A stretch of 30,871 nt of DNA, taken from a virus. The translations under genes and the position numbers were made by a program. The DNA lies in UHGV virus genome UHGV-0057520; one strand, 5' to 3'. The first letter of the stretch is position 1, and each line of letters starts with the position of its first letter. Below the pieces are notes generated by a model. The model made no database searches. It had not been told where the DNA came from and worked only from the letters and a program-made list of their open reading frames with translations. Shown piece by piece: positions 23,324 through 30,541 of this stretch.

Positions 23324-24736
23324 ATGGCTACTTGGCAACAAGGAATCAACTCAGGCGGTTTTCTTGCTGGTATCGGTGGGCAAAACTCAAATGCGCCAAA
23401 GGCAAGTGATGTAAGTGAGGCGTTGGCCTATATTCGCCAGAACAACGAAATGGAGCGTTCAGGTCGCAATAACATCGGCCTTCAGGCGTTGCAGGGACTT
23501 GGTAGTGTCGCTCAAACATATCAAGCCGCAAAGCAACAGGAAGCGGATGCTGCATTCCAAAAAGAATATGCGGCAGCCATCCAGTCAGGCGATCGACAGC
23601 AGGTGCGAGATTTGATGACCAAATATCCTGGTCAATTAGAGAAGATTCAGTCTGGCATGAAGTGGGCAGACGAAGACCAGCGCAACTCTATCGGCACCTT
23701 AGCGGCTGGCGCTCGCCTTGCGGCATCGTCTCCAGAAGCAATGCAATCATGGCTACAAAACAACGCCAAGGAACTGACTCGCGTCGGTGTTGACCCTAAT
23801 AACGTTGCTCAGATGTATCAGCAGAACCCTTCAGGATTTGGTGAGTTTGTTGATCACCTTGGGATGGCTGCGCTTGGTCCGATTGATTACTTCAATGTTC
23901 AGGACAAGATGGCTGGTCGTGAGATTGACCGAGGCGGGCTGGCAGAGACAATCCGCAGCAATCAGGCTGGTGAAGCACTTCAGGCGAGAGGGCAAAACCT
24001 TTCCTATCAGTCAGCAATGACTGGGCACAATATCGCAGCACAACGCTTGGCTCTGGATCAGCAAGAGTTCGGGTTTAAGATGCAGCAAGCGCAGGAAAAG
24101 GCTCAGCAGTTGATTAGCGAAGCACCTAAGCTGTCAGTAAACATGGAAAAAGGCATCGAGACGGCTGTAAACAATGCCACAGCATCATCAAACTCAGCCA
24201 ATTCCATGAGTGCGCTTGCTCAACAGTTCAGAGCAGAAAAACCAACGACCGGCTTGTTCGGTAACGCACAGAACATGTTCGCAAAACTTACCGGAAGCGA
24301 TACGACATTGCGTGATTTGCGCATTCGCCAAAATGCCCTTGTTAACAGTCAGGTTCTTAAATTCCTACCTCCCGGCCCAGCAACGGATAAAGACGTTGAG
24401 ATCGTTCGACAGGGTGCGCCAACTGACATGGATAACCCTGAGACGGTCGCAAGATGGCTTGATGCAATGGCAAACCTTGAGCGACGAAACGCGCAGTTTA
24501 ATGAGTTTAAAGCTGAGTGGATGAGCGCGAATGGCAACCCTGGACAATCGCGTAATGGCGGTCAGATATTGGGGTTGGATGTTAAAAAAGGTGAATCATT
24601 GGGGAGTGCCGTTAAGCGGTATATGTCAATGAATACTGACGCAGCGCCAGCACAAGATTCGACACCTTCAGGAGAACCACGGAATCAGGTTGGATCATAT
24701 ACCTCAAAATCAGGCATTCAATTTACGGTGGAATGA
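23324..24736 (+). CDS. ejection protein, gp20-like
   Basis: 470 aa (P22 gp20 is about 471 aa); assigned by synteny and size. Confidence 0.7.
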
Positions 24737-26580
24737 TGAAAGTAACTGCAAACGGTAAGACATTTACCTTTCCTGATGGTACGAGCACCGAAGATATTGG
24801 CACCGCCATTGATGAGTATTTTGCTGGTCAGGCTGTTCAGCAACAAACAGTTAATCAGGCCAATAATGCACCAACACGGGAAGAACCATCATTGATGCAA
24901 CAAGCTGGCGATTGGCTCACTGGTGGTCAAAGTGCAGGGCAAATTGCGGAACAGGCTGGTCGTGGTCTGGTAAACATACCATTTGACGTATTGCAGGGCG
25001 GCGCAAGTCTGATTAATGCAATCAGCCAGGGGCTTGGTGGCCCCAAGGTTTTGGACGATGTCTATCGTCCAGTCGATCGACCAACAGACCCTTATGCGCA
25101 AGCTGGAGAAACAATTGGCGGGTATTTAGTTCCAGGAGTTGGAACGGCAGGAAGCATGGCTATTGGATCACTGGCAGAGGCCGCAAATCAGAAAGGCGAT
25201 TTCGCACAAAATGCAGCTAAAAATGCCGGAGTTAACCTTGCCGCTCAGGGGGTTCTTTCCGCAGCAGCAAAGGGAATAGGGCGTGGAATAACGGCTATAA
25301 AAGGTGATATTGCGCCAGAAGTGGCGAAGAAAATTGCCACATCAGAATCGATGGGCGTGACACCAATGACATCTGATGTTATCACGCCGAAAAATGCTTT
25401 CACTCGCGGCCTAACTCAGGATGCCGAGGGGGCTTTGCTCGGGACAGGCTCAAAGCGAGCGGAGCAATATGCAACGCGTAGTAAGCTGGTAAGTAATTAT
25501 TTTGACCGTTTTGGTGAGTACAACCCTGATGATGTGGTGAAATCTCTTACCACCACGTTAAGGGGGCGGAAGGATGCCGCTGGCGCTGTTATCAATGACG
25601 TCACCAATAAAATGGGTAATGCCGCAGTTGATACCACAAATACCATGAATGCTCTGAATACAGCGATCGCAAGACAGGAACGGCTTGGGACGTCTGCCAA
25701 TCAAAGCCTGCTTACATCCTTGCGTAACCTACGTGAAGAATTAGCAAACCCTGCAACTGATTTGGATGTTACGTTTGATCTCTTGCGTCAGCACAGAACA
25801 GCATTTAGATCTAATGTTCAGGGAGATGCTATGGTCTTCCCAAACCAGGCAAAAGCAGCTACCAATATGGTAGAGAATGCAATGTCAAAAGATCTTCGTA
25901 ACGCAGTTGCAAAAAACCTCGGTGCATCAGACGCAGCAAAATACCTTAAAGCAAATTCCGATTATGCAAACGTTTATAATAAGGTGCTTAATAAAAACAT
26001 TGCTAACAAGCTCAACAAGGCAAGCAGTGAAGCCAGTCCTGAACTTATAAATACCGTTGTATTAAGCAGAAAACCATCTGACGTGAAACGAATCTGGAGC
26101 GCATTGGATAATAAAGGGAAAGATGCTATGCGTGCAGCTTATGTCAGCAAAATAGCGGAAAAGGCCGGTGACTCTCCAGCCAAGTTCATCACTGAAGTTA
26201 ATAAGCTGAAATCTCAGTCAGGCGGTGAAATTTACAACACTATTTTTTCTGGAAAGCACATGAAAGAGCTTGATTCTCTTCATGAAGTTCTACAGCAAAC
26301 AGCAAGGTCAGACACCGCAAATGTAGTAACTCAGACGGGGCAATCGCAAGCCAACAGGATAAGGACGATTGGCGCAACTGCGACTCTTGGCGTATCAATG
26401 GGGCTTGAGGCTGGTTTCGGTGCAATGATGCGCTTGTATGAGTCAAAAGCAGCAAGGAATGCTCTCTTACGTTTGGCAAACACCAAAGCAGGAACACCAG
26501 CCTATGAAAGAGCGCTAAATAATGCTGCAAATGCGATACGCCCTATACTTTCAAGCCAAATTACAGCAGAACAGCAATAA
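24733..26580 (+). CDS. ejection protein, gp16-like
   Basis: 615 aa (P22 gp16 is about 609 aa); assigned by synteny and size. Confidence 0.7.
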
Positions 26581-26593
26581 AAATAAGATATAA

Positions 26594-27078
26594 CTATCTG
26601 ATATTACTGCTACTGTTGCATGTTACCGTGTTTCCAAATCCTGAATTGCAGTTTGTATATGTGTCAACGCGTGTTGGGTAAGGTTGAGTTATAACAGGCT
26701 GGCGCGCTTTTTGCTCGATCGCTTGCATTGTGTTTACAGCCTGATAATTCAATAAAGCCTGCTGGAATGCTTGGCTTTGTGCTATTTGTTGTGCTTGTTC
26801 TTGGCTTTGTAATTGAACATAAAGATTCTGAAGTTCAAGTCTTGCCTGTGTGTCACTTATCTTGCCTTCATCGACACCTTGCCCGAGCATCTTCGCAGCA
26901 AGGACATACAGCTTAGGTGTTGGTGCTGATGCCATGCGAGAGTCGTTCTTCAAGCTGGCATCAAGGCAATTAGCCATATCGCTAAGCTTTGGATAGCGTT
27001 GCTCGCAACTTGCCTGATAGTCGCTTACTTTTGCGCACCCAGCCAGCAGAAGCGGGATAATTAACAGTGATTTTTTCA
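26594..27078 (-). CDS. lipoprotein, about 161 aa mature-region Gln-rich (candidate exclusion or conversion factor)
   Basis: ORF track 26594..27130; likely start is the ATG at 27076-27078 giving MKKSLLIIPLLLAGC (signal peptide and lipobox); opposite strand to the flanking late genes; Gln-rich helical segment then Cys-containing C-terminus. Confidence 0.6.
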
Positions 27079-27113
27079 TATAATTAACTCTCCTTAGTTT
27101 TGCGCAGGATACC

Positions 27114-27479
27114 ATGAAAAAAGTTAACATTGGAAACGTACCAAAGATGCTCGTTCCGCTCTTTGAGAGCGGTACAATTGTGTTTTGTAGAGACTTTCCA
27201 GAATGGCAACGCCTGCATCAAAAACTTGGCGTTGACGTGCATGACTCGGACGCCAACGGAGCGTCTCATACAATGAGTAGCGAGAATGGTGTTTTGCATG
27301 TGATAGGCGTGTTCAATGGCAAACTATCTACTATTGCCCATGAGTGCGCTCACATGGCATTCGATATCTGCTCAAGGGTAGGTGTTGATGTTGAACCAGG
27401 AAGAGCCAACGAGACTTACTGCTACTTAATGAGCAGGCTTGTTGAGTTCTGCGAGCGACATATCAAAAAGCCGGAGTGA
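27114..27479 (+). CDS. small HExxH protein, possibly ImmA/IrrE-like (M78) zinc metallopeptidase
   Basis: 121 aa; HECAH motif followed about 15 residues later by RANETYCYLM, resembling the HExxH...E.EAN.FA signature of ImmA/IrrE domains as I recall them. Confidence 0.5.
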   Translation: MKKVNIGNVPKMLVPLFESGTIVFCRDFPEWQRLHQKLGVDVHDSDANGASHTMSSENGVLHVIGVFNGKLSTIAHECAHMAFDICSRVGVDVEPGRANETYCYLMSRLVEFCERHIKKPE

Positions 27480-27492
27480 CCCGGCTTGATTA

Positions 27493-27687
27493 TTACTTTT
27501 TGCTGTCTGGAGTTCGCTTATCCAATACCCAGCCATGACCTGGCTTTGTTGTTGGTGGAAGCCTTTCGTTGTCCTTGACGGTTGCAAAATTGTCTTTCTT
27601 ACCGCCGCGTGGGCCAACTTCTTGGTATATTCCGCCGTTTTTTCCTGTGTTTTCACCTGGTTTTTTCGCCATGATATACCTCAACAT
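27493..27687 (-). CDS. small basic Gly/Lys/Pro-rich hypothetical protein, 64 aa
   Basis: ORF downstream of the mnt terminator on the minus strand; low-complexity; no family recognised. Confidence 0.35.
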   Translation of the reverse strand: MLRYIMAKKPGENTGKNGGIYQEVGPRGGKKDNFATVKDNERLPPTTKPGHGWVLDKRTPDSKK

Positions 27688-27763
27688 ACACCCGTTATTG
27701 GGCGATTAAATATTGATCTCATTTTATAAGTAGTCAATATGGCCCAGGTAAATGCAAAAATTA

Positions 27764-27786
27764 ACCCACCTTCAGGTGGGTTTTTT
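27764..27786. terminator. bidirectional rho-independent terminator at the 3' end of mnt
   Basis: ACCCACC-TTCA-GGTGGGT hairpin flanked by AAAAATT upstream and TTTTTTG downstream. Confidence 0.7.
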
Positions 27787-28023
27787 GTACAAATCCTTCA
27801 GCGTATCAAACACCATCTTCTTAACAAGCTCTGACTGCTCATCAGCGATGCGTTCCGCATCGTCTCGATAGCCTGAAATTTTGGATGGCTTTGATACAGC
27901 ATCAGTCACTATCTGAACTAATTCTGAATTAAGAGAGCGGCCATTGGATTTGGCTCGCTGTTTTAGTTTTTCCTTTAATTCGTAAGGTAGCCGCAGATTA
28001 AATTGCGGGTCATCTCTTCCCAT
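27772..28023 (-). CDS. mnt: Mnt repressor (ribbon-helix-helix, P22 immI-type)
   Basis: 83 aa; NGRS.NSEL.QIV.DA.SKPS...GYR.DAER.ADEQSELVKKMVFDTLKDLYKK is near-identical to P22 Mnt as recalled. Confidence 0.85.
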   Translation of the reverse strand: MGRDDPQFNLRLPYELKEKLKQRAKSNGRSLNSELVQIVTDAVSKPSKISGYRDDAERIADEQSELVKKMVFDTLKDLYKKPT

Positions 28024-28087
28024 TCTTGATGCCTCGCTTTTGTGAGTGGATCGGCATCTTATTATCTGCTGATTGCATCCTCAATAA

Positions 28088-28100
28088 GACCACGGTGGTC
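28088..28100. promoter_or_regulatory. Mnt operator-like palindrome (O_mnt), likely overlapping a rightward promoter
   Basis: GACCACGGTGGTC is a perfect 13-bp palindrome sharing the CCACGGTGG core of the P22 mnt operator as recalled; lies between mnt and the tailspike start. Confidence 0.55.
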
Positions 28101-28170
28101 GTATTTTTTTGATTAATAATGCATCACTGCGGCAATGCTGCGGCGATTCCTTGTATCTGGAGCAAATTAA

Positions 28171-30162
28171 ATGACAGACATTACAGCCAATGTTGTAGTG
28201 AGCATGCCTTCGCAACTCTTCACTATGGCGCGTTCTTTTAAAGCCGTAGCTAATGGCAAAATTTATATCGGTAAAATTGACACTGACCCGGTAAATCCTG
28301 ATAACCAGATTCAGGTCTATGTTGAGAACGAAGATGGTTCTCACGTTCCTGTTGCACAGCCAATCGTCATCAATGCCGCTGGGTATCCAGTATATAACGG
28401 ACAGATTGCCAAATTCGTAACTGTGCAAGGCCATTCTATGGCTGTTTATGATGCATGTGGTGCGCAGCAGTTCTATTTTCCAAATGTGCTGAAGTATGAC
28501 CCGGATCAGTTAAGGCAGGAGTTAGCAAGTTCAGGTGATGATCTTGGAGATGCATTAATAGCAGTAAAACAACCATTCACCTTGTCAATAAGAAGGACGC
28601 AGCATCAAAAAAATGCCGAGCACATTAGTGTTAGTGATTTTGGTGCAAAAGGAGACGGCATAACAGATGATACTGTAGCAATTCAAAATGCTATTAATGC
28701 AGTACCAGAAGGGGCTATACTTGGATTTTATGGTGGTGAATTTGTTTTTGATAAGGTTGAATTGCTTAAGCCAATAACATTGGTTGGTGATGCAACGTTA
28801 ATTCACAACGGATTTAGAATAAAATCTAGCAGAATACGATCACTTTTATCTGGTGTTCAGAAATGCAAGGATTACTCCGAGTCTTCAAGAGCATTTTATT
28901 GCTATGCAAATGAAGACCAAAGAGATTATGACGATATTCAGATTTTGTTTAATAGATTTGAAGGTTTCTTTTACTCTACGACATTTGTTGCAAAAAACTA
29001 TTATTTGGAGAATGACCCTAATTCAAGAACTGTCAAAAATACAAAAGTAATAGGATGTACATCAGTTGCTCCTGATTCTGTAAATGCCGGTCATTTTCAA
29101 CATATAGGCGTTACAAATGCTGAAACATCACATAACTCAACTTATGGCGGACAAAATGCAACATCATACAACTTCATTAACCAGAATGGATTTGTAAGGA
29201 TTATAGGAAATTATGACCATAACAATAACTATGGTTCATGTGAGCTTGAGAACTCAATGGTGAGTAACTCAGTCATATCATGTAATACGTTTTCGTCATA
29301 TTTATGGGTGGATGATACAAGCAATGTTACTATTTCTGGAAATACAGTTTCATCAAGGATCAAAGTAACATCGCAAACTGACGATGTTCATAATATAACC
29401 ATATCAGCAAATACCACAAAACGGATTACTATAGAGCAATTTGGAGAATCTCCGACAGGTCTGGTATATGGTGCATTAATTTCCTGTAACACTATTACTG
29501 GCGACAGTGATGGAAGTTCAGACATTTTATGTACGTCACTTGTTACAGGTGAAATTTCATCAAATTATTGTCATGGATCAGAAAAAAATATATCAATTGT
29601 CCGCCTGGATTCTTCTGATATAACTGTTAGAAACAATAAAGGAAACAAAGGATTACTTACAATAAGTAACGATGGTGGGAGGATAATTGAATATGGCAAT
29701 GATTCTATGGTTCTGTCTGGAAGCATAGATAGCAGACATATACATAATTTATTACAACCAGACACATCGTATTTAGATCTACCGGGGAAATATCTGCACG
29801 GAACTAAATATACTGGCAGTATCCCCCCCGGTTCCACAGGAACTGTATCACTTCAAATACCATCAGGGGCAAGCCTTGTTTTCAGGGGTGTTTCTATATG
29901 GGTTCTAATTAGAGATGTTAGCAATAACAATATATCGTCATTCAGAATTGATGGTTCATATAGAGTTGTTGGTGGAAGTGTTGGTCTTAGTTTTGCTGAT
30001 GCTTATTCGAAACTCGGGGTGGATGCAAACTCTATAACAGTGTCAAACAATAACAGCACTTCTGACAATATCAGCATAGCAATTAAAAACACAGATTCAT
30101 CAAAAACCCTTCAGGTTACTGTTATGCCGGAGGTTTCAAGCAGGTTAGGTATTGAGGAATAG
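28171..30162 (+). CDS. tailspike: P22-type head-binding N-terminal domain fused to a different, AT-rich receptor-binding domain
   Basis: 663 aa; first ~110 residues ([11 protein letters not shown]...[20 protein letters not shown]...VLKYDPDQ) match P22 gp9; the rest carries beta-helix/pectate-lyase-like signatures ([18 protein letters not shown]) and is Asn/Ser-rich. Confidence 0.85.
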
Positions 30163-30238: not shown

Positions 30239-30541
30239 ATGATGAATATAGAAGTTGATATAACACCAATTCTTCACGCACTTTGCGCTGTTGTCGCACA
30301 AGTTCTGGTTGGTCTTTTTACCGGAAACTGGGCTTACGGTGCGATAGCCGGTTGTACGTTCTTCATTGCGCGTGAACACACCCAGGCAGAATATCGCTGG
30401 ATTGAAATGTTCGGGCATGGCAAGCGTATGAATATGCCGTGGTGGGGTGGTTTTGATCCACGCGTGTGGGATGTAGGAAGCCTTATGGATTTTTCTTTCC
30501 CAATTATCGGATGCTTATTGGTATGGATTCTTGCATCGTAG
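30239..30541 (+). CDS. small membrane protein, 100 aa, downstream of the tailspike
   Basis: Two hydrophobic helices flank a Trp/His-rich loop (EYRWIEMFGHGKRMNMPWWGGFDPRVWD); no family recognised. Confidence 0.45.
   Translation: MMNIEVDITPILHALCAVVAQVLVGLFTGNWAYGAIAGCTFFIAREHTQAEYRWIEMFGHGKRMNMPWWGGFDPRVWDVGSLMDFSFPIIGCLLVWILAS

What the first reader, a model, noticed from the sequence alone, without database searches (positions are those of the whole stretch)
26594..28170. Accessory island between ejection genes and tailspike: lipoprotein, HExxH protein, small ORF and Mnt without arc/ant
The late operon is interrupted by a minus-strand lipoprotein gene, a plus-strand HExxH protein gene, a minus-strand 64-aa ORF and a near-canonical mnt gene, with a bidirectional terminator and a 13-bp operator-like palindrome. 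In P22 this position holds immI (sieA, mnt, arc, ant). Here mnt and its operator are retained, but no arc or ant reading frame is present between mnt and the tailspike start. The combination of a repressor, a putative metallopeptidase and a secreted lipoprotein is not an arrangement I recognise and could be a new regulatory or exclusion module.
Basis: partly seen in the sequence, partly recalled or inferred. Interest (0 to 1): 0.8.

Follow-up and report, generated by a model that had tools for sequence, protein, structure and literature searches.

The report
P22-type "ant moron" with lipoprotein cassette
This is an ordinary variant of the well-known variable accessory region ("ant moron") that sits between the DNA-injection genes and the tailspike gene of P22-like prophages; two of its genes are P22's own, and the only part without a described counterpart is a lipoprotein gene that takes the place and the promoter of P22's superinfection-exclusion gene sieA.

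Summary
The features are real at about the stated coordinates. They are not a new integrated module. The window is an E. coli P22-like prophage, and 26594-28170 is the "ant moron" between genes 16 and 9 (PMC2629481).

- **hkcC, orf59a and mnt.** The HExxH gene is hkcC and the small ORF is orf59a. With the 3' half of mnt they are about 97% nucleotide-identical to P22 itself.
- **arc and ant.** Both are absent. That is common: the same mnt-operator-gene 9 junction occurs in phages SE1, ST160 and Gally and in 108 of 5,426 complete E. coli genomes.
- **Mnt.** It is not decaying. dN/dS is 0.095 against ST160. Its Gln6 variant pairs with an operator changed symmetrically in both half-sites.
- **Lipoprotein.** It replaces sieA downstream of the ribosome-binding site, under the upstream sequence annotated in P22 as PsieA. 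It abuts a convergent gene-16-sized frame in 84 of 88 related loci measured. The rest of the interval varies combinatorially. Published RNA-seq shows its Gally homologue is transcribed from the prophage.
- **HkcC.** It belongs to a broad family of about 120-residue proteins. Only H-E-H and a Glu 20 residues later are invariant, which marks a minimal zincin.

Best reading: three independent cassettes. I infer, but have not shown, that the lipoprotein is a superinfection-exclusion factor. Interest is low to moderate.

The parts
24733..26580 (+). Gene 16 homologue (ejection/DNA-transfer protein); left boundary of the accessory region
   Evidence: 69% nucleotide identity to P22 gene 16. Annotated as a DNA transfer / P22-gp16 family protein in matching E. 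coli genomes.
26594..27079 (-). Lipoprotein gene (161 aa; lipobox LLAG|C, Ala at +2). Occupies the sieA slot, convergent with gene 16 with 13 nt between the stop codons.
   Evidence: phrog_6067, function unknown, E=2.9e-109. No hit in Pfam, NCBIfam or PADLOC. About 90 protein clusters, all named ones from Enterobacterales. Invariant C15, C25, C38 and C154. Next to a convergent gene-16-sized frame in 84 of 88 loci measured. The homologue GALLYPH_13 is transcribed from the prophage (PMC9928086 S1 table).
27080..27165 (-). Upstream region of the lipoprotein gene: Shine-Dalgarno AAGGAG plus the sequence annotated in P22 as the sieA promoter (PsieA). It lies inside the 5' end of hkcC on the other strand.
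   Evidence: Identical to P22 upstream of sieA, and to HK620 upstream of hkcB, as far as the Shine-Dalgarno sequence, apart from one substitution; it diverges just after it. The promoter is annotated in BK000583. An 85-bp upstream fragment plus sieA is sufficient for exclusion in P22 (PMC10883804).
27114..27479 (+). hkcC (121 aa): predicted minimal zincin with HExxH at 76-80 and Glu100; lies in the late-operon orientation
   Evidence: 99.2% amino-acid identity to P22 and HK620 HkcC. phrog_1365, function unknown. AF2 pLDDT 89. In 66 diverse relatives only H76, E77, H80 and E100 are invariant. Structure and profile matches to zincins are weak.
27468..27487 (.). Bidirectional terminator hairpin between hkcC and orf59a (tORF59A of HK620; annotated as the mnt terminator in P22)
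   Evidence: -12.1 and -12.6 kcal/mol.
27493..27672 (-). orf59a (59 aa; the mechanical ORF runs to 27687): small basic protein of unknown function
   Evidence: phrog_3202, E=1.3e-31. Sub-threshold Pfam YjzC hit, E=0.0017. Homologous to P22 orf59a.
27709..27737 (-). Sigma-70-like promoter match TTGACT-17-AATATT upstream of orf59a
   Evidence: The only promoter-like site reported by the scan of 26400-28300. This is a consensus match only.
27763..27782 (.). Bidirectional terminator hairpin at the 3' end of mnt (tMNT of HK620)
   Evidence: -13.4 and -14.4 kcal/mol; 0 of 200 shuffles fold as well.
27772..28023 (-). mnt (83 aa), Gln6 variant. The C-terminal half is P22-like; the N-terminal DNA-binding half is of the SE1/ST160/Gally type.
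   Evidence: Pfam Arc and Repressor_Mnt. 100% amino-acid identity to Gally Mnt. dN/dS 0.095 against ST160 at dS 0.51. The mosaic junction lies near 27870.
28056..28084 (-). Candidate Pmnt: TTGAGG-17-TAAGAT. Positional homologue of P22 Pmnt (TTGAGA-17-TATCAT, my reading); ST160 has TTGTGG-17-TATGAT.
   Evidence: Read from the alignment and the P22 annotation. It falls below the scanner's threshold, so it is inferred.
28086..28102 (.). Mnt operator variant AAGACCAC-G-GTGGTCGT (P22: AGGTCCAC-G-GTGGACCT)
   Evidence: Aligns with the annotated P22 mnt operator. It is the only copy in the window. The same half-sites sit 62 nt from the mnt start in 25 of 26 surveyed loci with Gln6-type Mnt, and also in the window, Gally and ST160.
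28171..30162 (+). Tailspike gene (gene 9 homologue); right boundary
   Evidence: N-terminal head-binding region is 76% nucleotide-identical to P22 gene 9. Annotated as phage tailspike protein.

Best explanation
The interval is one allele of the 'ant moron', the hypervariable accessory region that P22-like phages carry between genes 16 and 9. It is built from three cassettes that are inherited independently and do not need one another.

(1) Lipoprotein moron.
- It replaces the sieA coding sequence and keeps the upstream sequence annotated in P22 as PsieA.
- It is therefore expected to be made by the lysogen, exported, lipidated at Cys15 and, with Ala at +2, sorted to the outer membrane facing the periplasm.
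- My inferred function is superinfection exclusion of P22-like phages. It would act either on the periplasmic conduit that the ejection proteins build or on an outer-membrane step of DNA delivery. This would be a functional analogue of the inner-membrane protein SieA, not a homologue. I put about 0.4 on this step.

(2) hkcC.
- This is a P22 gene read in the late-operon direction.
- It encodes a minimal zinc-peptidase-like protein (HExxH plus Glu). Its substrate is unknown.

(3) orf59a-mnt with Pmnt and one Mnt operator.
- The Ant antirepressor, Arc and the Pant promoter hexamers are gone.
- Mnt and its operator have nevertheless co-evolved (His6 to Gln6, with symmetric G-to-A and T-to-A changes in the operator) and are under purifying selection.
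- Mnt therefore still binds this site. It most likely regulates its own promoter and/or transcription that enters the tailspike gene, and no longer controls an antirepressor.

Shown here: identities, positions, distribution, selection, and transcription of the Gally homologue.
Inferred: localisation, exclusion activity, peptidase activity and the present target of Mnt.
For: Locus identity.
- 27090-28023 aligns to P22 13837-14770 at 91.8%. P22, HK620, ST160 and Gally show the same gene order.
- The literature describes this region as variable and moron-like, with hkcC and 59a of unknown function in P22 (PMC2629481).

Independence of the cassettes.
- In 89 lipoprotein loci the gene orders are: Lpp-Mnt-Tsp 46; Lpp-HkcC-Orf59a-Mnt-Tsp 10; Lpp-Ant-Tsp 10; Lpp with Mnt-Arc-Ant 8; Lpp alone 7; Lpp-HkcC-Orf59a-Tsp 2.
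- In Morganella and Yersinia ruckeri the lipoprotein gene is the only gene between genes 16 and 9.
- No SieA or HkcB hit appears in any of these loci.

Lipoprotein expression.
- Its upstream region is identical to the P22 sieA upstream region down to the Shine-Dalgarno sequence, apart from one substitution.
- In P22, 85 bp of upstream DNA plus sieA suffices for exclusion (PMC10883804).
- The 97.5%-identical Gally homologue reads log2(fpkm+5) 6.0-10.3 in lysogens, against 3.6-4.1 for the adjacent gene 16 (PMC9928086 S1).

This locus is an exclusion hotspot.
- SieA maps here (PMC10883804). So does the BTP1 antisense RNA STnc6030 (PMC7067206).

HkcC.
- Only H76, E77, H80 and E100 are invariant over 66 relatives at 23-74% identity.
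- The AF2 model is confident and places the motifs on two helices packed against a sheet.
- The profile aligns to thermolysin 135-181. That span contains thermolysin's HExxH and Glu166, with the same 20-residue spacing (residue numbers from my memory).
- 15 of 66 members give sub-threshold hits to Pfam SprT-like.

Mnt.
- dN/dS is 0.095 against ST160.
- The Gln6 type pairs with GACCAC half-sites in 25 of 26 surveyed loci. The His6 type pairs with GTCCAC.
- The same junction to gene 9 is contiguous in 108 of 5,426 E. coli genomes.
Against: - No experiment links this lipoprotein to exclusion.
- Its AF2 model is only moderate (pLDDT 66) and has no structural neighbour in the PDB. It hits no PADLOC defence model.
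- The authors of the Gally study classed Gally as having no morons. The lipoprotein gene fell just under their 5-fold cut-off in LB (70.2 against 78.1). The text implies that Gally made no difference to LF82 survival in macrophages.
- Gally's lipoprotein gene has a different upstream region from the window's. Its expression data therefore transfer only by analogy.
- For Mnt, no sigma-70-like promoter was found on the + strand near the operator, so what it represses is unknown.
- Deleting mnt in LF82 gave no phenotype in the one assay tried (PMC9928086).
Confidence: 0.8

Rival explanations
1. One reading: the repressor, the metallopeptidase and the secreted lipoprotein work together as one new regulatory or exclusion module.
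For: The genes are adjacent, and PsieA overlaps the 5' end of hkcC. The exact arrangement recurs in 13 complete E. coli genomes and in 10 IMG/VR contigs.
Against: - Each component occurs without the others. hkcC-orf59a-mnt sit with sieA in P22, and hkcC sits with hkcB in HK620.
- The lipoprotein is alone in Morganella and Yersinia.
- The lipoprotein occurs with Mnt only in 46 loci and with Ant only in 10 loci.
- HkcC paralogues sit between the lysis and terminase genes in ST64T, and next to a lysozyme gene in mEp044.
- Only one operator copy exists in the window, and it is not near the lipoprotein gene or hkcC.
Confidence: 0.05
2. The lipoprotein is a host-fitness or virulence moron, comparable to lambda Bor, that helps the lysogen under host-imposed stress. 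It is not a phage-exclusion factor.
For: - The Gally homologue rises from log2 about 6.1 in LB to 10.3 at 1 h inside macrophages.
- The gene is present in 186 of 5,426 complete E. coli genomes. These include ST131, O104:H4 and O26 strains.
Against: - Every genomic context examined for the family, from E. coli to Morganella, Providencia, Yersinia and Tatumella, is the gene 16-adjacent slot of a P22-like prophage.
- SieA is reported to occupy this same gene 16-gene 9 position in P22-like prophages (PMC10883804).
- There is no similarity to Bor, TraT or other known lipoprotein families.
Confidence: 0.2
3. mnt and its operator are a decaying remnant of an immI region that lost arc and ant, with no present function.
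For: - The positional homologues of the Pant hexamers are degraded: TCGGCA and TGCATC, against TTGACA and TATATT in P22.
- Phage L's mnt-like gene has been suggested to be a possible remnant (bioRxiv 10.1101/2020.10.05.325894).
- The LF82 mnt deletion showed no phenotype in macrophage survival.
Against: - dN/dS is 0.095 at dS 0.51 between two arc/ant-less lineages. The first 32 residues are identical.
- All 26 surveyed Gln6-type alleles are intact 83-aa frames.
- The operator half-sites are invariant, while the centre base takes all four values and the flanks vary.
- The arrangement is found in 108 E. coli genomes and never joined to arc or ant.
- The gene is induced 40-fold in macrophages in LF82.
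Confidence: 0.08
4. HkcC is a repressor-cleaving protease of the ImmA/IrrE type. It would be a protease-based replacement for the Ant antirepressor in the immunity I region.
Against: - Only 1 of 66 relatives touches Pfam Peptidase_M78, and only at E about 0.1, whereas 15 touch SprT-like.
- hkcC coexists with a complete mnt-arc-ant set in P22, so it is not a replacement.
- Paralogues lie in or next to the lysis gene region of other phages, far from any immunity region.
Confidence: 0.07

Closest known systems
The 'ant moron' / immunity I region of phage P22 and its relatives (Villafane et al. 2008, PMC2629481; Sauer et al. 1983)
   Same: - Same position between genes 16 and 9.
- hkcC and orf59a, with their terminators, are about 97% nucleotide-identical to P22.
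- The same mnt gene family, with an operator at the same place relative to mnt.
- The upstream region annotated in P22 as PsieA is retained.
   Different: - arc, ant and the arc-ant segment that carries sar in P22 are absent.
- The positional homologues of the Pant hexamers are degraded.
- sieA is replaced by a lipoprotein gene.
- The Mnt DNA-binding half and the operator are a different specificity type (Gln6 with GACCAC).
Salmonella phages SE1 and ST160, and Escherichia phage Gally (Lederbergvirus)
   Same: - SE1 and ST160 have hkcC-(orf59a)-mnt-gene 9 with the same arc/ant-less junction and the same operator half-sites.
- Gally and vB_EcoP-720R6 have the same lipoprotein (97.5% identity) and an identical Mnt protein.
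   Different: - ST160 has no lipoprotein gene; SE1 gave no lipoprotein match either.
- Gally has a different gene (GALLYPH_14) in place of hkcC and orf59a.
- No phage record in the collection covers 80% or more of the queried interval 26400-28400. The exact combination was seen only in prophages: 13 complete E. coli genomes and 10 IMG/VR contigs.
P22 SieA superinfection-exclusion protein (Leavitt et al. 2024, PMC10883804)
   Same: - Same slot and same orientation (convergent with gene 16).
- Same upstream promoter region and Shine-Dalgarno sequence.
- Both families are confined to P22-like prophages in every context examined.
- No SieA hit occurs in the 89 lipoprotein loci surveyed.
   Different: - No sequence similarity.
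- SieA is a multi-pass inner-membrane protein with a cytoplasmic FxRYPxEAxxFNK motif. This protein has one signal peptide with a lipobox and is predicted to be an outer-membrane-anchored periplasmic protein.
- Exclusion by the lipoprotein has not been tested.
Phage lipoproteins that block entry: T5 Llp, the Cor proteins of phi80/HK022/N15, and Ltp of TP-J34 (from my own knowledge; Ltp is cited in PMC10883804)
   Same: All are small, prophage- or early-expressed lipoproteins of the cell envelope. The predicted disulfides fit a periplasmic location.
   Different: - No sequence or fold similarity was detected.
- Those proteins act on FhuA or on a tape-measure protein, neither of which has a role in P22-like infection. 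The target here would have to be different.
Minimal zincins and the SprT-like/thermolysin-type HExxH...E metallopeptidases
   Same: - HExxH on one helix and a Glu 20 residues downstream on the next helix. This matches the spacing of thermolysin His146-Glu166 as I recall it.
- A small alpha/beta fold.
- 15 of 66 relatives weakly match Pfam SprT-like.
   Different: - No match reaches a curated threshold.
- As I recall, SprT-like enzymes use a third His rather than Glu.
- No activity or substrate is known.

Membership tests
P22 immunity I region (mnt-arc-ant-sar) | Mnt repressor gene | tested here: met
   Pfam Arc E=2.8e-22 and Repressor_Mnt E=2.2e-18. Aligns with P22 mnt.
P22 immunity I region (mnt-arc-ant-sar) | Mnt operator next to mnt | tested here: met
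   28086-28102 aligns with the annotated P22 operator, with symmetric substitutions.
P22 immunity I region (mnt-arc-ant-sar) | arc and ant genes (and sar between them) | tested here: not met
   The 147-bp spacer holds no such frame. tblastn with Arc and Ant finds nothing apart from the mnt paralogy. The segment that carries sar in P22 is missing.
P22 immunity I region (mnt-arc-ant-sar) | Pant promoter overlapped by the operator | tested here: not met
   The positional homologues of the hexamers read TCGGCA and TGCATC. No + strand promoter-like site was found.
'ant moron' of P22-like phages (PMC2629481) | Variable, non-morphogenetic gene set inserted between the gene 16 and gene 9 homologues of the late operon | tested here: met
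   Flanked by gene 16 and the tailspike gene. The content varies among 89 related loci.
'ant moron' of P22-like phages (PMC2629481) | Own promoters and terminators (autonomous expression) | tested here: met
   Two bidirectional terminators. The PsieA region is retained. The Gally homologues are transcribed in lysogens independently of the late genes.
SieA superinfection-exclusion proteins | Sequence homology to SieA types A-C, including the FxRYPxEAxxFNK motif and the multi-pass inner-membrane topology | tested here: not met
   tblastn with P22 SieA gives no hit in the window or in the 89 loci. The lipoprotein sequence lacks the motif and has only one N-terminal hydrophobic segment.
SieA superinfection-exclusion proteins | Blocks DNA injection by P22-like phages | not testable with these tools
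   Needs plating and DNA-entry assays.
Bacterial lipoproteins | Signal peptide ending in a lipobox [LVI][ASTVI][GAS]C | tested here: met
   MKKSLLIIPLLLAG|C. G14 and C15 are invariant in 25 homologues. Ala at +2 implies outer-membrane sorting by the Asp+2 rule (established knowledge).
Known phage or plasmid envelope lipoprotein families (Bor, Cor, Llp, TraT) | Match to the family profile | tested here: not met
   Zero Pfam families at E up to 1. No NCBIfam or PADLOC hit. No PDB sequence or fold match.
Zincin / gluzincin metallopeptidases (HkcC) | HExxH motif plus a downstream third metal ligand, conserved across the family | tested here: met
   H76, E77, H80 and E100 are the only invariant columns in 66 relatives at 23-74% identity.
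Zincin / gluzincin metallopeptidases (HkcC) | Zincin fold (active-site helix and ligand helix packed on a beta-sheet), with significant similarity to solved members | tested here: inconclusive
Zincin / gluzincin metallopeptidases (HkcC) | Membership of a curated peptidase family (for example Pfam SprT-like or Peptidase_M78) | tested here: not met
   No hit at gathering score. 15 of 66 relatives match SprT-like below threshold, with a best E of 1e-4.
Zincin / gluzincin metallopeptidases (HkcC) | Zinc binding and peptidase activity | not testable with these tools
   Needs biochemistry.

The most novel reading that the evidence does not exclude
The lipoprotein founds a new class of superinfection-exclusion proteins specific to P22-like phages. 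It would act from the outer membrane or periplasm on the conduit built by the ejection proteins, and would be a non-homologous alternative allele to the inner-membrane SieA. In addition, in arc/ant-less phages the Gln6 Mnt-operator pair would have been re-purposed to control prophage-state transcription of the tailspike region. In LF82 that region is switched on inside macrophages independently of the late operon.
Probability: 0.3. Interest if true: 0.55.

Novelty: new member of a known kind. Interest (0 to 1): 0.25.

Why it matters
- **The region as a whole.** It matters little. It is a textbook example of cassette shuffling in a known phage hotspot.
- **The lipoprotein.** It is carried by 186 of 5,426 complete E. 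coli genomes, including ST131, O104:H4 and O26 strains. It is transcribed from the prophage in the one strain with data. It sits under the promoter of a proven exclusion gene. This makes it a cheap and well-motivated candidate for a new exclusion mechanism against P22-like phages.
- **HkcC.** This P22 gene has been listed as 'unknown' in the P22-like phage literature (HK620 record; PMC2629481). The invariant HExxH...E signature now gives a testable hypothesis for it.
- **Mnt.** The natural His6/Gln6 Mnt and operator pairs are a clean case of repressor-operator co-evolution in a classic model system.

Tried and rejected
- **Fold searches for the lipoprotein.** Foldseek against the PDB and a profile hmmsearch against PDB sequences gave only chance-level helical matches. 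I drew no function from the fold.
- **PADLOC.** No hit for any of the four proteins.
- **NCBIfam.** Nothing for the three unknown proteins.
- **Second Mnt operator.** I looked elsewhere in the window for a possible relocated antirepressor target. There is none within 3 mismatches. The part of the prophage outside the window was not searched.
- **Promoter downstream of the operator.** I looked for a + strand promoter that Mnt might repress to control gene 9. I found none by scan or by eye. The palindrome followed by a T-run is a weak hairpin (-6.3 kcal/mol, z -1.4), and the T-run is not conserved in Gally or ST160. I therefore rejected a terminator reading.
- **Spanin idea.** I considered that the lipoprotein might be a spanin. 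I rejected this because a lysis protein gene is annotated in the lysis cassette upstream, in the 100%-matching E. coli IR53017 locus, whose upstream part may differ from the window.
- **Genome scan.** The genome-contig scan returned only 5 loci, because that collection holds one genome per species. The survey therefore rests mainly on IMG/VR contigs. Those are dominated by near-identical E. coli alleles.
- **Literature.** Searches for hkcC, hkcB and orf59a found nothing beyond 'unknown function'.
Full report
**What is there**

The window is a P22-like (Lederbergvirus) prophage of E. coli. The stretch 26500-28250 is 100% identical to E. coli IR53017 and 99.9% identical to several other strains, including an ST131 strain. 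In IR53017 the prophage's right end lies next to ybhB-bioA.

The ORF map reads, from left to right:
- gene 16 homologue, 24733-26580 (+)
- lipoprotein gene, 26594-27079 (-)
- HExxH gene, 27114-27479 (+)
- small ORF, 27493-27672/27687 (-)
- mnt, 27772-28023 (-)
- a 147-bp spacer
- tailspike gene, 28171-30162 (+)

Other features in the interval:
- Two hairpins behave as bidirectional terminators, at 27468-27487 and 27763-27782. Their free energies are -12.1 to -14.4 kcal/mol.
- The 13-bp palindrome GACCACGGTGGTC is at 28088-28100.
- tblastn with P22 Arc, Ant and SieA finds nothing in the whole window except the expected Arc-Mnt paralogy.

The corrections are the start of the lipoprotein gene, the length of the small ORF, and the number of terminators.

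**This is the known 'ant moron', and two of the 'unknown' genes are P22's own**

- Window 27090-28023 aligns with P22 13837-14770 at 91.8%. Window 27086-27870 is 97.3% identical to P22.
- The HExxH protein is 99.2% identical to HkcC of P22 and HK620. The small ORF is orf59a.
- Villafane et al. (PMC2629481) named the interval between genes 16 and 9 the 'ant moron'. They listed its P22 content as sieA, hkcC, 59a, mnt, arc, ant and sar. They showed that it varies from no genes to six genes among P22-like phages.
- They also noted versions with only mnt plus one unknown gene (ST64T, ST104). The phage L paper says the same for L.
- hkcC-(orf59a)-mnt-gene 9 without arc or ant is already present in the sequenced phages SE1 and ST160.

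**The arc/ant-less junction is common and is not decay**

The spacer aligns with P22 from the mnt start through the operator. It then jumps to about 50 bp upstream of gene 9. Gally and ST160 have the same junction.

- The operator here is AAGACCAC-G-GTGGTCGT. In P22 it is AGGTCCAC-G-GTGGACCT. The T-to-A change occurs in both half-sites. The G-to-A change is mirrored in the Gally and ST160 alleles, while the window's right arm is imperfect at that position.
- Mnt here has Gln6 where P22 has His6. Its strand PQFNLRLP resembles Arc's PQFNLRWP.
- From memory, His6 is a known specificity determinant of Mnt (Youderian et al. 1983; Knight and Sauer 1989). I could not retrieve those papers.
- In the surveyed loci, Gln6 Mnt goes with GACCAC half-sites in 25 of 26 cases, always 62 nt from the mnt start and always without ant. 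The window, Gally and ST160 show the same pairing. His6 Mnt goes with GTCCAC in the 4 loci found, all of which carry ant.
- The centre base of the operator takes all four values, while the half-sites stay fixed.
- Between the window and ST160, both of which lack arc and ant, mnt has dS 0.51, dN 0.048 and dN/dS 0.095. Residues 1-32 are identical.
- The segment made of the N-terminal half of mnt, the operator and the gene 9 start is contiguous in 108 of 5,426 complete E. coli genomes. In the sampled hit rows no match ended at the operator, so it was never seen joined to anything else.
- The positional homologues of the P22 Pant hexamers are degraded (TCGGCA and TGCATC). The Pmnt homologue is kept: TTGAGG-17-TAAGAT here, TTGTGG-17-TATGAT in ST160 and TTGAGA-17-TATCAT in P22. 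These promoter readings are mine, taken. The scanner reports no + strand promoter.

I conclude that Mnt still binds this operator and is selected for. It no longer guards an antirepressor. What it controls now is not established.

Published LF82 data cover Gally, whose Mnt protein is identical. In that lysogen mnt, the tailspike gene and the gene after it are induced 6- to 40-fold inside macrophages, while upstream late genes are not. A mnt deletion had no effect on bacterial survival there (PMC9928086).

**The lipoprotein**

*Sequence features.*
- It has a canonical signal peptide and lipobox (LLAG|C) with Ala at +2. By the Asp+2 rule this predicts an outer-membrane lipoprotein facing the periplasm.
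- C25, C38 and C154 are invariant, and a Cys-x8-9-Cys C-terminal hairpin is present. This fits a disulfide-bonded periplasmic protein.
- The family has about 90 clusters at 90% identity. All named members come from Enterobacterales, and all are annotated as hypothetical.
- It is phrog_6067, of unknown function. It matches nothing in Pfam, NCBIfam, PADLOC or the PDB.
- The AF2 model is moderate (pLDDT 66): a helical bundle, a long Gln-rich helix and a beta-hairpin. It has no structural neighbour.

*Genomic context.*
- Upstream of the start codon, the DNA is identical to the P22 sieA upstream region and to the HK620 hkcB upstream region, apart from one substitution. It diverges two or three bases after the Shine-Dalgarno sequence.
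- That region is annotated as the sieA promoter in BK000583. With only 85 bp of it, sieA confers exclusion (PMC10883804).
- sieA, hkcB and the lipoprotein gene are therefore alternative cargoes of one expression slot.
- In 89 loci with the lipoprotein (4 from contig look-ups, 5 from the genome scan, 80 from IMG/VR), no SieA or HkcB hit is found.
- In 84 of 88 loci where it could be measured, the gene sits within about 0-190 nt of the end of a convergent gene-16-sized reading frame.
- In Morganella and Yersinia ruckeri it is the only gene between genes 16 and 9.
- Phages Gally, vB_EcoP-720R6, VSe13, MS2 LVA and Proteus phage Brookers carry it. So do 186 of 5,426 complete E. coli genomes.

*Expression.* In the LF82 lysogen the 97.5%-identical GALLYPH_13 has these log2(fpkm+5) values (PMC9928086 S1 table):

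| Condition | GALLYPH_13 | Adjacent gene 16 |
|---|---|---|
| LB | 6.0-6.3 | 3.6-4.1 (all conditions) |
| B1/B6, without macrophages (my reading of the column labels) | 7.9-8.2 | |
| 1 h in macrophages | 10.3 | |

- In LB it missed that paper's 5-fold moron cut-off narrowly (70.2 against 78.1).
- Gally's upstream region differs from the window's. The two lines of evidence for prophage expression are therefore independent of each other, and neither is direct for this allele.

*Function.*
- The same locus elsewhere encodes SieA. In BTP1 it encodes an antisense RNA that gives immunity to superinfection (PMC7067206).
- On these grounds I infer that the lipoprotein is a prophage-expressed envelope protein. 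It is most likely a superinfection-exclusion factor against P22-like phages (about 0.4). A host-fitness role is the main alternative (about 0.2).
- It is not a member of the SieA family. It would work like SieA only in outcome.

**HkcC**

- A profile search of 1.84 billion representative proteins found 514 clusters at E up to 0.001. Nearly all of the 150 best listed are stand-alone proteins of about 110-140 residues.
- In an alignment of 66 of them (23-74% identity to the query), the only invariant columns are H76, E77, H80 and E100.
- AF2 gives a confident model (pLDDT 89, pTM 0.83). HExxH lies on helix 71-88, E100 lies at the start of helix 100-116, and both helices pack on a small sheet.
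- The profile aligns, not significantly (E 0.44), with thermolysin 135-181. That span holds HExxH and Glu166 at the same 20-residue spacing (residue numbers from my memory). It also aligns with myroilysin at E 0.028.
- 15 of 66 members hit Pfam SprT-like below threshold.
- HkcC is therefore very probably a minimal zincin-type metalloprotein. It belongs to no curated peptidase family, and its substrate is unknown.
- The gene reads in the late-operon direction. Paralogues at 38% identity lie between the lysis and terminase genes of ST64T and L, and next to a lysozyme gene in the siphovirus mEp044.
- This fits a portable late-operon accessory gene. It does not fit an immunity function.

**No integrated module**

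Among the 89 lipoprotein loci the gene orders are as follows:

| Gene order | Loci |
|---|---|
| Lpp-Mnt-Tsp | 46 |
| Lpp-HkcC-Orf59a-Mnt-Tsp (the window's type) | 10 |
| Lpp-Ant-Tsp | 10 |
| Lpp with Mnt-Arc-Ant | 8 |
| Lpp alone | 7 |
| Lpp-HkcC-Orf59a-Tsp | 2 |

The remaining six loci are other or truncated arrangements.

- HkcC, Orf59a and Mnt sit with SieA in P22, and HkcC sits with HkcB in HK620.
- The three 'unknowns' therefore assort independently. The combination in this window is one draw from a shuffled set.

**Verdict**

- The interpretation as a new regulatory or exclusion module is not supported.
- The region is a new combination of known cassettes within a known kind of element.
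- The one part worth an experiment is the lipoprotein as a candidate non-homologous counterpart of SieA. Secondary points are the zincin signature of the long-unassigned P22 gene hkcC and the natural Mnt-operator specificity pair.
- Interest 0.25.

Noticed in passing
window 30239-30541 (+): A 100-aa predicted membrane protein lies just downstream of the tailspike gene and has no Pfam hit. Its N-terminus matches Gally GALLYPH_17. In LF82, GALLYPH_17 is induced about 30-fold in macrophages together with mnt and the tailspike gene (PMC9928086).
   Followed up: partly
L001 (phage Gally) 2500-6683; published LF82 RNA-seq: In the LF82 lysogen the five rightmost Gally genes are transcribed independently of the upstream late genes. 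These are the lipoprotein gene, GALLYPH_14, mnt, the tailspike gene and GALLYPH_17. The lipoprotein gene was just under the authors' moron cut-off (70.2 against 78.1). The promoter that feeds the tailspike gene in the lysogen is not identified.
   Followed up: partly
window 27998-28023 (Mnt residues 1-9) and 28086-28102: The recognition strand of Gln6-type Mnt (PQFNLRLP) is nearly the same as Arc's (PQFNLRWP). The operator differs from P22's by G-to-A and T-to-A changes that are mirrored in both half-sites in most alleles. This looks like a natural repressor-operator specificity switch.
   Followed up: partly
loci L046, L056, L064, L075, L078, L087, L088, L093, L096 and others: A third, more distant Mnt-like gene lies next to the tailspike gene in about 30 of the lipoprotein-bearing loci. 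Its mechanical ORF is 99 aa and starts MPFHPTGE. No CCAC-N-GTGG-type palindrome was found upstream of it. Its operator and function were not examined.
   Followed up: no
alignment A1 (lipoprotein family), residues about 128-161: The C-terminal tail comes in two forms...TNCNSGFGNTVTCNSSSNIR and ...TTNCTTYGNQTRCQSY. The two forms are exchanged among otherwise similar N-terminal domains, and both keep a Cys-x8-9-Cys hairpin. This tail may be a specificity determinant.
   Followed up: no
L009 891-1616 (E. coli IR53017 prophage, nin region): A KilAC-domain antirepressor gene follows a truncated Rha-family gene in the nin region of the prophage that matches the window at 100% over the finding. The window itself shows no P22 Ant homologue. 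I did not check whether the window carries this nin-region antirepressor.
   Followed up: no
window 26581-26593: Only 13 nt separate the stop codons of gene 16 and the convergent lipoprotein gene, and there is no terminator between them. Transcripts of the lipoprotein gene should therefore run antisense into the 3' end of gene 16. This is the geometry of the BTP1 exclusion RNA STnc6030 (PMC7067206).
   Followed up: no
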